Below are positions 14,364-20,230 of a stretch of 64,000 nt of DNA, piece after piece (position 1 is the first letter of the stretch; every line of letters starts with the position of its first letter). This stretch comes from a virus (lineage: Duplodnaviria > Caudoviricetes): IMG/VR virus record IMGVR_UViG_3300033075_000861, positions 20,291 through 84,290 of that record, one strand, 5' to 3'. Below the pieces are notes generated by a model. That model was not told the DNA's origin. It did no database searches and saw only the letters and a list, made by a program, of their open reading frames with translations. Both the position numbers and the translations under genes were made by a program.

Positions 14364-14447
14364 GAGGCGACAACTACCTGCCGAGGTGTGAGCGGAAGAC
14401 TAACGGCGTAGCCGTGATGGACCAGTGCTTCGACTCAATTCACAAAG

Positions 14448-14536
14448 CGGAAGGAGCGGGAGTCGAACCCGCACAGCACCTTTCGGTGCTGACTCGGCTT
14501 CCAACCGAGCGGACTTGCCAATGTACCAACCCTTCC
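14448..14536 (-). tRNA. tRNA-Ser(GGA)
   Basis: Cloverleaf, loop TTGGAAG, long variable arm, G73. Confidence 0.9.
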
Positions 14537-14728
14537 TTACGTTCTCCCGAAGGAGAGGTTCTTCTGCAAACGGACCTCCTTGTTGAGAAAGGTCCAGCAC
14601 TCGCCGCTCTCGTCCAAGAAGATCACCCACATCAGGTCGTGTTCCTGGGAGTAGTCGATCAAGACATGGGCAAATCCTTTGCCCCTAGGGGTGTCCAGCG
14701 GGATCGGTGGATCAAGCCTGAGCATCAT
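14537..14728 (-). CDS. Small conserved hypothetical protein inside the tRNA operon
   Basis: LDPPIPLDTPRGKG...IDYSQEHDLMWV; CTAGATA motif 4 nt upstream. Confidence 0.65.
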   Translation of the reverse strand: MMLRLDPPIPLDTPRGKGFAHVLIDYSQEHDLMWVIFLDESGECWTFLNKEVRLQKNLSFGRT

Positions 14729-14735
14729 GCCCTAT

Positions 14736-14933
14736 CTAGTCTTTTGTCAGGTTGGCCGTCGTATGACCGTGGGCGGTCCCGATCTCTAGGATCGTTTTCG
14801 CCTCGGAGTGCTTGAGCAGGGCAAGGATTACAGCCACGTCCAGAAGCGGCGTGTAGTACGACAGGGCGTCGGGGGCCTCGACCCGGTTATACTTGCCAAA
14901 GAACTCGTCTTGGCTGATGGTGGCGATCTTCAT
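14736..14933 (-). pseudogene. Truncated class I methyltransferase fragment
   Basis: ILEIGTAHGHTT (motif I) is followed within a few codons by TAG at aa 65. Confidence 0.5.
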
Positions 14934-14935
14934 GC

Positions 14936-15169
14936 CTAGAACATAGTAGGTTCGTGACCGAAGTCCTCACGCAGCCGCCGCCGGCAGTTCTCGTAGTAGG
15001 ACGCCTTCCTCTGGTCGATCTCGGCGTCGGCGTAGTTGTGGGCGATGAACAGCCCCTGGAGGATGTCCCAGTCGTTGTCCCACAGCACCTCCAGCCAGAA
15101 TAGCCTGTCCCGACGCTCGTCATCGGGGAGGCTGAGGATCTCAGCCCTCGATTCTTCATAGGTCTTCAT
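14936..15169 (-). CDS. Hypothetical protein
   Basis: 77-aa ORF. Confidence 0.5.
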   Translation of the reverse strand: MKTYEESRAEILSLPDDERRDRLFWLEVLWDNDWDILQGLFIAHNYADAEIDQRKASYYENCRRRLREDFGHEPTMF

Positions 15170-15193
15170 GAAAAGCTCGCCTTATCATCTAGC

Positions 15194-15904
15194 ATGGGTA
15201 CTTCCATACTAGCTGAGTGGGGCATTGACGAATACCGCCTCACCAACATCCTGAGCAACAACCCTAGCCTAAAAGGCATGCTTCTGGGCTACGTTGCCGA
15301 GGACAAACTGACCGAGCGGCTGGCGGGCGACCACCGCCTTGTCGTGCTTGAGAAGCCGGACGACCACGACCGGAAGAACAAGGGCGACCGCGTGGTGTCC
15401 TACAAGGGCCACAGGTTCCGTATGGAGTCCAAATGCCTCCAGGGCAACTCGATCAAGAGGAGTGCCGCCGGCGGCAGCGGCAAGGCCCAGTGTGACGCCA
15501 GTGATTGCAGGATGGTGGTGCTGCCCGATGGTCAGGCGGTCAAAACGACGTGTCTCAAGTACGACGAGTTCGACATCCTGGCCGTGTGCCTTTACTCGCT
15601 GACAGGTTCATGGGATTTCGGATTCATCCTCAACAGGGATCTGCCGCCTACCGGGGCCTACACCGAGGATGTCAACCGTCACCTCATCAAGACATCGGTC
15701 AGCATCGAGTGGCCCTTGAGGTCGCCATTCGTGGATGACTACTGCCCCCTGATGGACCTGCTTATCGAGCGGAAGGAGCGGGAGTTGAACCCGCAGTCCC
15801 CCGAGGGGGACGGCAGTTTAGCAAACTGCTGCGACGAACCGATAGTCGCCTCCCTTCCATGTGTCCAATCCAGTCGCCCAGAGTTACTTGTCGCCTTGGC
15901 GTGA
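15194..15904 (+). CDS. PD-(D/E)xK restriction-endonuclease-like protein
   Basis: GYVAE helix followed by KGD-x10-ESK; antisense to the tRNA operon; 3' end overlaps tRNA-Ser(GCT). Confidence 0.6.
   Translation: MGTSILAEWGIDEYRLTNILSNNPSLKGMLLGYVAEDKLTERLAGDHRLVVLEKPDDHDRKNKGDRVVSYKGHRFRMESKCLQGNSIKRSAAGGSGKAQCDASDCRMVVLPDGQAVKTTCLKYDEFDILAVCLYSLTGSWDFGFILNRDLPPTGAYTEDVNRHLIKTSVSIEWPLRSPFVDDYCPLMDLLIERKERELNPQSPEGDGSLANCCDEPIVASLPCVQSSRPELLVALA
15770..15858 (-). tRNA. tRNA-Ser(GCT)
   Basis: Cloverleaf, loop TTGCTAA, long variable arm, G73. Confidence 0.9.
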
Positions 15905-15986
15905 TCTCGCCTGCCACAGCTTTCACTCAGGCCCCAGGGGTTCTGCTGAGAGTCGTTTCACGACACTAAGACCGAATCGAACAGTT

Positions 15987-16233
15987 TCAGTCGATGACCA
16001 AGCATATCAGACCAGCGTGTAGTCTCCTGTGACAGTTGGCACAAAGTATCACGCACTTGGCTATCTCGTCCTTAATCCTTGGCATTCCGTAGTCCCGGTC
16101 CCGTCCTATGCTGAAAGTCTTGTCCCGCAAGTGATGGAAATCCAAGCAGGCCACGCATGTCTCGCCGCCCAGCCCTCTTCTTGTTGAAGTCGGCTATAGG
16201 TTTTTCTTCGTTGCAGAGTGTGCAGGTCTTCAT
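15987..16233 (-). pseudogene. HNH endonuclease remnant (internal deletion and frameshift)
   Basis: MKTCTLCNEEKPIADF in one frame joins GETCVACLDFHH...KCVILCANCHRRLH in the +1 frame. Confidence 0.7.
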
Positions 16234-16277
16234 GTCCTAATGTAGTCAGGGAGATGAAAACCTGCTCTGTATTTCAG

Positions 16278-16349
16278 TGCCACCCCACGGAGTTGAACCG
16301 TGGCTCGATGCTCTTCAGGCATCTGTGCAGACCCCTACACCAGAGTGGC
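16278..16349 (-). tRNA. tRNA-Phe(GAA)
   Basis: GCCACTC/GGGTGGC acceptor, GATGC-CTGAAGA-GCATC anticodon arm. Confidence 0.8.
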
Positions 16350-16352
16350 ATT

Positions 16353-16483
16353 TGACGGAGACATAATCGCCTGCGGGTTGATTCCTGTGGGATTCGATAC
16401 CCACAAATCCCTTGCGGGATGCCGACTTTTGAGGTCAGTGTGTTTACTTTACACGAAGGAACCGCAAACTGCAACTTCCGTCA
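16353..16483 (-). ncRNA. Stem-enclosed degenerate tRNA-Leu(CAA)-like RNA (cloverleaf 16379-16463)
   Basis: TGACGGA/TCCGTCA terminal stem; D-loop lacks GG; 8-nt T-loop TATCGAAT; CTCAAAA loop; long variable arm. Confidence 0.65.
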
Positions 16484-16484
16484 G

Positions 16485-16568
16485 TCGGGGAGGCGGGAGT
16501 CGAACCCGCATGGCTCAAGGCCGGCATGGTTTAAGCATGCTGTGTCTCACCATTTCCACCACACCCCG
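16485..16568 (-). tRNA. tRNA-Leu(TAA)
   Basis: GCATG-CTTAAAC-CATGC, long variable arm, A73. Confidence 0.85.
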
Positions 16569-19330: not shown

Positions 19331-19381
19331 ACCGGATTGTAGGAGACACGCTTTTGCACGACCAGCAGGTTTGCCAGACAG

Positions 19382-19468
19382 CGGAATGCGAGAGAATCGA
19401 ACTCTCCTCCCCTTGCGGGGAACCTGGGTTCGGGCCAGGCCCAGCCAACCAATATCTGGCTGCATTCC
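19382..19468 (-). tRNA. tRNA-Ser(CGA)
   Basis: CCTGG-CCCGAAC-CCAGG (C at position 33), variable arm, G73. Confidence 0.75.
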
Positions 19469-19473
19469 GTAAA

Positions 19474-19594
19474 TGGTGCAGGGAGCAGGGTTTTCACCTG
19501 CGAGTGGACGGCACCTATCCGTCATAGTCGCCGGCAACCATACGGCTACCGTCTGTCTAACGCTCTTGCGTCCAAGGCTTCCGACTTCCCCTGC
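19474..19594 (-). ncRNA. CCA-ending tRNA-like RNA with expanded D-arm
   Basis: GCAGGGG/TCCCTGC-A-CCA acceptor, GCAGG-TGAAAAC-CCTGC T-arm, 51-nt D-loop holding two hairpins. Confidence 0.65.
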
Positions 19595-19600
19595 ATGTAC

Positions 19601-19852
19601 TCACTTGGTCTTGGGCATCGAGTCGCCCGTCGCCTTCCTGTGGCCCTTGATCGCGTCGTGCGAGTCGTACATCTCGTCGTCCTCACGCCGTCCGTGGACC
19701 GACTTCACGACCCAGCCGTTGTCCCAGGCGTCGTCGCCGTTCTTCAACTTCAGCGTCTTGTTGAGGACGGAGAACTTCTCGGGAATCCAACTCATCTGGT
19801 GCGAGTTCCCCTTCTGGAGCCTGCACTGACGGTAAGCGGTTTTCTTGCTCAT
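19601..19852 (-). CDS. Small hypothetical protein
   Basis: AAGGAGG RBS. Confidence 0.65.
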   Translation of the reverse strand: MSKKTAYRQCRLQKGNSHQMSWIPEKFSVLNKTLKLKNGDDAWDNGWVVKSVHGRREDDEMYDSHDAIKGHRKATGDSMPKTK

Positions 19853-19884
19853 GGCCCTCCTTAGGGGGTTGGTGTTTAGGACAG

Positions 19885-19968
19885 TGTCGGAGGTGGGAGT
19901 CGAACCCACACACCCTTACGGGTACGGCCTTCTGAGGACCGGGCGTCTACCAGTTCCGCCACTCCGAC
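19885..19968 (-). tRNA. tRNA-Leu(CAG), second copy
   Basis: CGGTC-CTCAGAA-GGCCG. Confidence 0.9.
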
Positions 19969-19969
19969 A

Positions 19970-20055
19970 TGGTGGGTGTGTGAGGAATCGAACCCCCTAT
20001 CTCTCTGAGCGTCGGGTTTACAGCCCAACTGGCTTCCCACAGCACTAGCACACCC
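19970..20055 (-). tRNA. tRNA-Tyr(GTA), second copy, CCA encoded
   Basis: TTGGG-CTGTAAA-CCCGA; T-stem has a G-A mismatch. Confidence 0.75.
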
Positions 20056-20058
20056 AAG

Positions 20059-20147
20059 CGGAATGCGAGAGAATCGAACTCTCCTCCCCCTTGCGGGAGA
20101 AACTGGGTTCAAGCCAGCCCCGGCCAACCAATATCCGGCTGCATTCC
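20059..20147 (-). tRNA. tRNA-Ser(TGA)
   Basis: Loop CTTGAAC, variable arm, G73. Confidence 0.85.
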
Positions 20148-20150
20148 GTA

Positions 20151-20182
20151 TAGGCCGGGCACCTGGGCTGGTGCCCGGCCTA
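20151..20182. other. Perfect 13-bp hairpin in the tRNA operon leader
   Basis: TAGGCCGGGCACC-TGGGCT-GGTGCCCGGCCTA. Confidence 0.7.
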
Positions 20183-20200
20183 TGGTAGTTGTCGCCAAGT

Positions 20201-20230
20201 TGTCAAAGAACACCGGAGTTAGGGTCCGGT
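20201..20230 (-). promoter_or_regulatory. rrn-like boxB hairpin plus boxA antitermination site
   Basis: ACCGGA-CCCTAAC-TCCGGT followed by TGTTCTTTGACA (E. coli rrn boxA is TGCTCTTTAACA; 10/12 match). Confidence 0.6.

What the first reader, a model, noticed from the sequence alone, without database searches (positions are those of the whole stretch)
14366..20230. tRNA operon built like an rRNA operon: boxB/boxA leader and a 13-bp stem spanning 5.8 kb
Seen on the transcribed (-) strand. The leader reads hairpin ACCGGA/TCCGGT, then TGTTCTTTGACA (boxA-like), then GGCGACAACTACC (20196-20184), then a perfect 13-bp hairpin, then the tRNA run. After the last tRNA, GGTAGTTGTCGCC (14378-14366) is the exact 13-nt complement and sits just before the terminator hairpin. 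Known: rrn operons use boxB-boxA for Nus antitermination and leader-trailer helices for RNase III processing. Inference: the phage recruits host NusB/NusE antitermination for its long structured tRNA transcript and closes it with a long-range processing stalk.
Basis: partly seen in the sequence, partly recalled or inferred. Interest (0 to 1): 0.75.

Follow-up and report, generated by a model that had tools for sequence, protein, structure and literature searches.

The report
rRNA-style boxA framing phage tRNAs
A fragment of a very large uncultured phage places the short RNA signal that bacterial ribosomal-RNA operons use to load anti-termination factors near the head of its 6-kb tRNA gene block, and the bases just after that signal can pair with bases just behind the last tRNA, so the block is laid out like an rRNA precursor.

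Summary
The second hairpin has 14 bp, not 13. A Phe-like tRNA (20306-20233) lies upstream of the "leader". The unit really starts at a promoter, a leader ORF and an attenuator terminator at 20661-20387.

The boxA reading is well supported. G-N-TCTTTGA-M-AA is the only conserved block in twelve related leaders whose flanks are otherwise unalignable. It usually sits 24-26 nt before a tRNA. It occurs once per related phage record of up to 341 kb. It matches the rrn boxA of E. coli and B. subtilis, and the window's exact 14-mer lies in rrn leaders or spacers of several phyla.

The 13-bp long-range stem is statistically unusual in position, although exact 13-mers in inverted orientation are common in this window. 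It gets one independent replicate: a 669-kb relative pairs a different 15-nt sequence, overlapping boxA, with a site 6 nt after its last array tRNA. Other relatives show weak pairing or none. DNA of the closest relative could not be fetched.

RNase III processing and a boxB role are not supported. NusB/NusE dependence could not be tested.

This scan has noted the same layout in other phage genomes. I found no paper describing it.

The parts
20634..20661 (-). Only sigma-70-like promoter of the region (TTGAAA-16-TATATT). It is the likely start of the transcription unit.
   Evidence: Equivalent TTGACA...TAAGAT promoters stand at the same place in relatives.
20457..20543 (-). 28-codon leader ORF rich in Ser/Leu/Phe/Cys/Tyr codons (context; this is a separate finding of the scan).
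   Evidence: Sequence. Similar short ORFs stand in L009-L014, L214 and L217.
20387..20427 (-). 18-bp intrinsic terminator with U-tract, a candidate attenuator, upstream of the first tRNA.
   Evidence: (I2).
20233..20306 (-). Phe-like tRNA (GAA) missed by ARAGORN. It lies upstream of boxA and outside the stem.
   Evidence: RF00005, 46.5 bits. It is 77% identical to tRNA-Phe 16277-16349 (D6).
20211..20231 (-).
   Evidence: A 7-bp hairpin stands at the same place in L231. It is not conserved in other relatives.
20200..20212 (-). boxA-like element TGTTCTTTGACAA.
   Evidence: (invariant G.TCTTTGA.AA).
20184..20196 (-). 5' arm of the long-range helix, GGCGACAACTACC. It starts 3 nt after boxA.
   Evidence: (I19).
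20150..20183 (-). Perfect 14-bp hairpin directly after the 5' arm. It ends 2 nt before tRNA-Ser(tga) and could stack on the long-range helix.
   Evidence: (I14). L214 has a 12-bp hairpin of unrelated sequence at the same place.
14447..20147 (-). 16 tRNA genes (Ser, Leu, Tyr, Phe, Cys) interspersed with small ORFs, including HNH endonucleases. This is the part enclosed by the two arms.
14366..14378 (-). 3' arm, GGTAGTTGTCGCC. It lies 68 nt after the last tRNA and 2 nt before the terminator stem.
   Evidence: (I19).
14332..14363 (-). 13-bp intrinsic terminator with U-rich tail that closes the unit.
   Evidence: (I17).

Best explanation
The tRNA block is one long, mostly untranslated transcription unit. 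It runs from the promoter at about 20661 to the terminator at 14332. After the attenuator and the first tRNA, the RNA carries an rrn-type boxA (UGUUCUUUGACAA).

By analogy with rrn operons and CRISPR arrays, boxA most likely binds host NusB-NusE(S10). That would convert RNA polymerase into a form resistant to Rho and to terminators, able to cross about 6 kb of structured RNA interspersed with small ORFs. This step is inferred, not shown.

The 13 nt that follow boxA pair with 13 nt just ahead of the final terminator. In the rrn model, boxA stays tethered to the polymerase, so the 5' arm is held at the RNA exit until the 3' arm emerges. That would make a 5.8-kb-range helix of only 13 bp kinetically feasible.

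What the helix does is open. Candidates are closing the precursor, protecting its ends, marking a processing site together with the stacked 14-bp hairpin, or pulling boxA off the Nus factors so that the terminator works.

My odds: boxA is functional, about 0.8. The long-range pairing is functional, about 0.5-0.55.
For: boxA.
- The invariant G.TCTTTGA.AA is the only conserved block in 12 leaders from lineages whose neighbouring protein is 44-60% identical and whose G+C ranges from about 40 to 65%.
- It lies 24-26 nt before a tRNA in L009, L010/13, L011/12, L014, L045, L051, L052 and L231.
- There is exactly one match to TCTTTGAMAAYTYGG in each of five related records of 39-341 kb, and none to the reversed control.
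- L014 and L045 read UGAUCUUUGAAA, which equals the B. subtilis rrn consensus shown to bind BsNusB (PMC13753749).
- The window differs at one position from the gamma-proteobacterial consensus GYTCTTTAANA (PMC5725501).
- The exact 14-mer lies in rrn leaders or 16S-23S spacers in 4-5 of 80 sampled genome hits.
- No NusB gene was found in the held parts of five phage records.

Single unit. There is one promoter-like site, and on the - strand the only strong terminators are the attenuator and the final one.

Helix.
- Exact 13 bp, duplex -26.4 kcal/mol against -19.3 +/- 1.3 for shuffled queries.
- Co-fold gain -21.2, reached by 0 of 300 controls.
- L231 has an exact 15-nt complement between GACAAUUUGGUGAGC (the 3' half of boxA plus 10 nt) and a site 6 nt after its last array tRNA. 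The gain is -28.9 against -6.1 +/- 2.9, reached by 0 of 300 controls.
- The two helices differ in sequence but share the layout.
- L214 shares the extended leader: boxA, a GGYGACRAC segment, a hairpin, then tRNA-Ser(tga).
- The rrn looping model and the position of boxC, the 5' strand of the leader-trailer helix, downstream of boxA come from PMC10250234.
Against: - No expression or binding data exist. No RNA run was found.
- The 13-bp helix has no extension, with mismatches on both sides. It is much shorter than rrn leader-trailer helices of 25-40 bp.
- Exact inverted 13-mers are frequent in this window (24).
- Relatives of group B (L013 extended, L045) have boxA but no leader-trailer complement.
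- Group A (L009, L011) has only 11-13 pairs, next to the start of the following gene. In L011 a gene on the opposite strand lies in between.
- The 3' arm in L231 overlaps the last codons of a convergent ORF.
- In L231 and in the window boxA is not at the very head of the array.
- Position 3 of the motif varies (U/A/G) more than in gamma-proteobacterial boxA.
Confidence: 0.55

Rival explanations
1. boxA is functional, but the 13-nt complement is a coincidence with no function. The tRNA block is simply an antiterminated unit that ends at an ordinary terminator.
For: There are 24 exact inverted repeats of 13 nt or more within 6.5 kb in this window, 2-3 times the shuffled expectation. One random control segment reached -19.3 kcal/mol against the observed -21.2. 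The helix does not extend beyond 13 bp. Group B relatives lack any such pairing. The finding was selected after the fact.
Against: Both arms lie in short non-coding flanks, the 5' arm 3 nt after boxA and the 3' arm 2 nt before the terminator (estimated p about 5e-4, and 0 of 300 in co-folding). L231 independently shows a stronger 15-bp pair at the equivalent positions.
Confidence: 0.27
2. The two 13-mers act on DNA. They would be terminal inverted repeats of a mobile or invertible tRNA cassette, or paired binding sites of a DNA-binding protein.
For: An inverted repeat brackets a gene block whose content varies between relatives. Homing endonuclease genes lie inside it. The array boundaries differ between lineages.
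Against: There is no target-site duplication at the flanks. No recombinase or transposase was seen among the ORFs tested inside the block. The repeats of the window and of L231 share no sequence, which is unexpected for sites of a conserved recombinase. The left arm sits between boxA and the hairpin in a leader layout shared with L214.
Confidence: 0.07
3. The site is a lambda-nut-like element: boxA plus the downstream long hairpin (20183-20150), read by a phage-encoded N-like antiterminator rather than by Nus factors alone.
For: The order boxA then hairpin is that of nut sites. L214 keeps a hairpin of different sequence at the same place.
Against: Most relatives have boxA followed directly by a tRNA, with no hairpin. 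The stems (12-14 bp, with loops of 4 and 6 nt) do not resemble the short boxB stem with its GNRA-like loop (my own knowledge). No N-like protein was identified.
Confidence: 0.06
4. The conserved motif is not boxA. It would be a -35 promoter element (TTGACA/TTGAAA), the U-tract of a terminator, or an RNase E/P processing signal of the first tRNA.
For: It contains TTGACA or TTGAAA. In the window and in L231 a hairpin precedes it, and one search lists the window's hairpin plus tail as weakly terminator-like. It always lies close to the 5' end of a tRNA.
Against: A promoter with this -35 would start transcription inside the tRNA, because TTGACA begins 21-23 nt before the tRNA. No -10 follows, and the scan does not list it as a promoter. 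The invariant non-U positions (G, C, G, A, A, A) do not fit a U-tract. In group B it lies 25-40 nt past the terminator tail. The match to rrn boxA variants is exact.
Confidence: 0.05

Closest known systems
[quoted passage not shown]
   Same: The boxA sequence matches: one mismatch to GYTCTTTAANA, and relatives are identical to the B. subtilis consensus. A small hairpin lies directly 5' of boxA, as described for B. subtilis rrn. The strand that pairs with the far end of the unit lies just downstream of boxA. A long structured transcript, only partly translated, ends at a terminator. rrn operons also carry tRNAs.
   Different: There is no rRNA. The unit holds only tRNAs and small ORFs and belongs to a phage. 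The helix has 13 bp (15 in L231) rather than 25-40. The 5' arm starts 3 nt after boxA rather than 18-19 nt. boxA follows an attenuator and one tRNA. The helix is not kept in all relatives.
boxA upstream of CRISPR arrays and suhB (Nus factor targets outside rRNA; named in PMC5725501 and PMC13753749)
   Same: A boxA is placed ahead of a long untranslated array of short RNA genes, where it is thought to block premature Rho termination.
   Different: Those are host genes of gamma-proteobacteria, and no leader-trailer pairing is described for them. Here a phage uses the element for tRNAs.
Lambda nutL/nutR sites (boxA-boxB with N protein)
   Same: A phage transcript carries a boxA to recruit host NusB-NusE.
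   Different: Lambda boxA deviates from the rrn consensus and needs N bound to boxB. Here the boxA is of rrn type, no N-like partner is evident, and the unit encodes tRNAs.

Membership tests
rrn-type boxA (NusB-NusE binding element) | Sequence fits the boxA consensus, including the positions critical for NusB-NusE (G2, C5, U6) | tested here: met
   The window reads U-G-U-U-C-U-U-U-G-A-C-A-A. G2, U4-U8, G9 and A10 are invariant in 12 leaders. Consensus sequences and critical positions come from PMC5725501, PMC13753749 and PMC3177189.
rrn-type boxA (NusB-NusE binding element) | Lies in the transcript, downstream of the promoter and upstream of long untranslated RNA genes | tested here: met
   The promoter-like site is at 20661-20634, boxA is at 20212-20200, and 16 tRNAs follow. 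That the region is transcribed is inferred.
rrn-type boxA (NusB-NusE binding element) | Conserved at the same position in relatives while the flanks diverge | tested here: met
rrn-type boxA (NusB-NusE binding element) | The same sequence serves as boxA in bacterial rrn operons | tested here: met
   The exact 14-mer lies before 16S (L098, L140) or in the 16S-23S spacer (L111, L144, probably L153) in 4-5 of 80 sampled hits. The host's own rrn is unknown.
rrn-type boxA (NusB-NusE binding element) | Binds NusB-NusE and confers read-through of terminators | not testable with these tools
   This needs binding and reporter assays.
rrn leader-trailer helix (RNase III processing stalk) | Complementary segments flank the RNA genes, with the 5' strand downstream of boxA | tested here: met
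   13 bp exact, 20196-20184 with 14378-14366.
rrn leader-trailer helix (RNase III processing stalk) | Long helix of about 25-40 bp, suited to RNase III | tested here: not met
   13 bp with mismatches on both sides. It reaches 27 bp only if the adjacent 14-bp hairpin stacks on it. L231 has 15 bp and no adjacent hairpin.
rrn leader-trailer helix (RNase III processing stalk) | Pairing kept in relatives through compensatory change | tested here: inconclusive
   L231 has a different 15-bp pair at the equivalent place. L009 and L011 are weak. L013 and L045 have none. The L214 contigs break inside the array. No DNA could be fetched for the closest relative.
rrn leader-trailer helix (RNase III processing stalk) | Cleaved by RNase III | not testable with these tools
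   No RNA data. No phage RNase III gene was found in the held parts of five records.
boxB hairpin | Conserved stem-loop next to boxA | tested here: inconclusive
   A hairpin abuts boxA in the window and in L231. In groups A and B the nearest upstream hairpin is the attenuator terminator, at variable distance. None is evident in L214.

The most novel reading that the evidence does not exclude
Large phages have copied the whole logic of rRNA precursor synthesis for their tRNA arrays. A boxA loads host Nus factors onto the polymerase and stays tethered to it. The tether presents the adjacent leader strand to a trailer strand that emerges kilobases later. The resulting helix closes the precursor and, because it lies on or next to boxA, strips the antitermination signal so that the unit ends at the next terminator. 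That would be a built-in 'reset' of antitermination, which has not been described even for rrn operons.
Probability: 0.3. Interest if true: 0.8.

Novelty: new variant of a known kind. Interest (0 to 1): 0.62.

Why it matters
boxA with Nus factors has long been treated as a device of rRNA operons and lambdoid phages. Only recently were a few other targets found, namely suhB and CRISPR arrays. A conserved rrn-type boxA in front of the tRNA arrays of a widespread clade of huge soil and sediment phages would show how phages push host polymerase through kilobases of structured, largely untranslated RNA that Rho would otherwise cut short. It would also give a simple sequence marker for such units.

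The leader-trailer pairing, if real, extends the 'tethered leader' model of rRNA folding to a non-ribosomal transcript. It offers a compact natural system of 13-15 bp for testing that model.

Because boxA varies somewhat between bacterial groups, the phage's version may also hint at its host.

Tried and rejected
- Phage GenBank collection, near and distant DNA search: only tRNA-level matches, no relative.
- Extended motif around the 13-mer: the other near-matches lie in coding DNA (GGC-GAC-AAC-TAC codons) and share no flanks, so the 13-mer is not a repeated regulatory site.
- Promoter reading of TTGACA: rejected on geometry and the lack of a -10.
- Sequencing runs: no RNA holder listed.
- Laying contigs of X1-X3: identical sequence, no variant, so no covariation data.
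- Closest relative (70-72% protein identity on both sides of the array; JGI sample 3300059965, contig of 14,531 bp): no DNA served. It is not in viral contigs.
- L214 lineage (60% identity): all contigs break inside the array. L236, found through the downstream gene, does not reach the array end.
- Relatives of L231 in viral contigs, and exact leader patterns of the window and of L231 in viral contigs: nothing closer.
- CCAARTTGTC, the complement of the conserved 3' half of boxA, is not enriched across 1.19 Mb of loci. The 11-mer in L009 at 16407 is probably chance.
- The 10-mer complement in L013 lies inside the AlkB-like coding sequence, so it is probably chance.
- Host search with the 18-mer TGTTCTTTGACAACTTGG in 301 genomes of the class of G006 (Gammaproteobacteria, judging by L144's record title): 2 genomes with at most one mismatch, so the host is not resolved.
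- The Lachnospiraceae hits with TGTTCTTTGACAACTGAATA are not next to rRNA or tRNA genes.

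
Full report
WHAT THE WINDOW IS

The window is 64 kb of an 84-kb IMG/VR virus record that CheckV rates 17% complete. It is therefore a piece of a phage of several hundred kb, with 61% G+C. It encodes a tail sheath, SbcC, ribonucleotide reductase and similar proteins.

On the - strand, ARAGORN finds 15 tRNA genes between 20147 and 14447. Rfam adds two more, at 20306-20233 (Phe-like, 46.5 bits) and at 16463-16379. All are Ser, Leu, Tyr, Phe or Cys. Between them lie small ORFs, at least one of them an HNH endonuclease.

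THE OBSERVATION

The two 13-mers are the only copies in the 84-kb record. Three corrections matter:
- The hairpin after the 5' arm has 14 bp.
- A tRNA lies upstream of the supposed leader.
- The unit starts further upstream. The only sigma-70-like promoter of the 7-kb region is at 20661-20634. A 28-codon ORF follows, then an 18-bp terminator at 20427-20387.

On the - strand, the only other strong terminator is the one right after the 3' arm, at 14363-14332. The layout is consistent with one unit of about 6.3 kb that has an attenuator at its head.

IS THE 13-BP COMPLEMENT MORE THAN CHANCE?

The repeat alone is not. The window holds 24 exact inverted repeats of 13 nt or more with arms 100-6500 nt apart, two to three times the number in block shuffles. 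Near-copies of the 13-mer elsewhere are codon strings in genes.

Position is what is unusual. The 5' arm begins 3 nt after boxA, and the 3' arm ends 2 nt before the terminator stem. From the window's own base rate I estimate about 5e-4 for both arms to fall in the two 85-nt flanks.

The energy tests agree:
- The duplex has -26.4 kcal/mol against -19.3 +/- 1.3 for shuffled queries.
- Co-folding leader and trailer gains -21.2 kcal/mol. None of 300 random segments reached that, although one came to -19.3.
- In the co-fold the helix is flanked by the 14-bp hairpin on one end and by the terminator hairpin on the other.

This is suggestive for a feature picked out after the fact. It is not proof.

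RELATIVES AND BOXA

The 343-aa protein encoded just upstream has relatives at 44-60% identity in many soil, sediment and freshwater metagenomes. One branch keeps the same order: gene, promoter, short ORF rich in Ser and Leu, terminator, then an array of long-arm tRNAs.

In that branch a single block is conserved between the terminator and the first tRNA. Aligned over 12 leaders, the invariant columns are G.TCTTTGA.AA, while the flanks do not align. The block begins 24-26 nt before a tRNA in L009, L010/13, L011/12, L014, L045, L051, L052 and L231. This rules out TTGACA as a -35 box for that tRNA. The pattern TCTTTGAMAAYTYGG occurs exactly once in each of five related records of 39-341 kb, and the reversed control never occurs.

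The block equals known boxA elements:
- E. coli rrn has UGCUCUUUAACA.
- The gamma-proteobacterial consensus is GYTCTTTAANA (PMC5725501). The window differs from it at one position.
- The B. subtilis rrn consensus AUGAUCUUUGAAA was shown by NMR to bind BsNusB and follows a small hairpin (PMC13753749). L014 and L045 carry exactly UGAUCUUUGAAA.
- The invariant G, C and U match the positions G2, C5 and U6 that PMC3177189 reports as critical.

Of the 80 loci returned, two lie 49-84 nt before 16S and two lie in the 16S-23S spacer. A fifth follows two tRNAs at a contig end. That is far more than the share of a genome that rrn leaders occupy. I therefore regard the boxA identity as well supported by sequence. 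Binding and antitermination remain inferred. No NusB gene was found in the held parts of five phage records, which fits the use of host factors but is weak evidence.

THE LONG-RANGE HELIX IN RELATIVES

In most relatives boxA is followed directly by the tRNA, so the 13-mer and the 14-bp hairpin are extra in the window's lineage.

- L214 (60% protein identity, 65% G+C) shares this extended leader: boxA, 3 nt, a segment that begins GGTGACGAC (the window has GGCGACAAC), a perfect 12-bp hairpin of unrelated sequence, then tRNA-Ser(tga). All its contigs break inside the array, so its trailer is unknown.
- L231, from a 669-kb contig (58% identity), gives the one independent test. Its boxA lies within the array, again after a 7-bp hairpin. 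GACAATTTGGTGAGC, which is the 3' half of boxA plus the next 10 nt, has an exact 15-nt complement that starts 6 nt after the last tRNA of the array, where a convergent gene ends. The co-fold gain is -28.9 kcal/mol against -6.1 +/- 2.9, with a minimum of -16.5 in 300 controls. Across all relatives tested I expect about 1e-3 exact 15-mers anywhere downstream, before position is taken into account.
- The helices of the window and of L231 share no sequence. This speaks for RNA pairing and against a conserved protein site on DNA.
- Group A (L009, L011) has 11-13 pairs just ahead of the gene that follows the array. The scores are not significant, and in L011 a gene on the other strand lies in between.
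- Group B (L013 extended by 18 kb, and L045) has nothing beyond chance.

boxA is thus general in the branch. The helix is found in some lineages only.

MECHANISM

Shown:
- the elements and their order;
- conservation of boxA;
- two independent leader-trailer complements.

Established knowledge: boxA alone suffices to assemble the rrn antitermination complex. In that complex boxA stays bound to NusB-S10 on the polymerase, so the leader strand waits at the RNA exit for the trailer (PMC10250234).

Inferred: the phage uses host Nus factors to carry the polymerase through a 6-kb array, and the tether lets a helix of only 13 bp form over 5.8 kb.

The purpose of the helix is open. RNase III usually needs about two helical turns (my own knowledge). 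Here that length exists only if the adjacent hairpin stacks on the helix, and L231 has no such hairpin. Because the helix lies on boxA in L231 and next to it in the window, it may instead displace the Nus factors and restore termination. This is speculation.

COMPARISON AND NOVELTY

The closest known system is the rrn leader and spacer: hairpin, boxA, and a leader strand that pairs with a trailer. boxA in front of CRISPR arrays is the closest functional parallel. Lambda nut sites are the phage precedent.

The differences are the cargo (phage tRNAs and small ORFs), the short helix, its closeness to boxA, the attenuator upstream, and the patchy presence of the helix.

A full-text search found no paper that links phage tRNA arrays with boxA. 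The scan's own notes list the same design in other phage genomes. I treat these as leads, not as evidence.

VERDICT

This is a new variant of a known kind. Interest 0.62.

Noticed in passing
window 20387-20661 (- strand); same place in L009-L014, L214, L217: Promoter, 28-codon ORF made almost only of Ser/Leu/Phe/Cys/Tyr codons, then a strong terminator, directly ahead of an array that encodes exactly those tRNAs. Similar short ORFs (for example ...SLLSSLSSLLYS...) and terminators stand at the same place in distant relatives. It looks like a leader-peptide attenuator for tRNA genes.
   Followed up: partly
window 14447-20306; L009-L014, L045, L231: The arrays of this phage clade hold almost only long-variable-arm tRNAs (Ser, Leu, Tyr). 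Phe and Cys are added in the high-G+C lineages. This restriction is kept across relatives of 40-65% G+C.
   Followed up: partly
window 18785-19537 and 18096-18683 (- strand): HNH endonuclease ORFs lie between tRNA genes (PF01844, E = 3.5e-5; HNH_3 weak). The two share a 49-nt repeat (D9).
   Followed up: no
L101:862-1113 and L131:2461-2736: In two genomes of Lachnospiraceae-type taxa (Marvinbryantia and Lachnoanaerobaculum by their record titles) the exact boxA-like 14-mer, followed by TGAATA, lies 150-200 nt upstream of an Rfam pemK RNA motif. Several other Clostridia hits share the TGTTCTTTGACAACTGAATA context and have no rRNA nearby.
   Followed up: no
L231:1280-2008 and L231:16111-17490: The 669-kb relative encodes a class II aminoacyl-tRNA-synthetase-like protein (PF00587, 242 aa) between the conserved upstream gene and the array leader. 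It also encodes a TnpB/Cas12f-like protein a few kb beyond the array.
   Followed up: no
L009:17715-18278, L011:19799-20368, L013 extended about 20890-21500: In the low-G+C relatives the array is followed by an AlkB-like ORF (my reading of its translation, starting ME..ELTDGG.LLY.PDFF; no domain search run) and then by a homologue of window ORF 13294-13767. The window has an unrelated 163-aa ORF in the AlkB-like gene's place.
   Followed up: partly
L144:2407-2424 (G006:C57:18407-18424): The 16S-23S spacer of a Rhodanobacteraceae genome matches the window's boxA plus the next five bases (18 of 18). This is a weak hint of the host. Only 2 of 301 sampled genomes of its class come within one mismatch.
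   Followed up: partly
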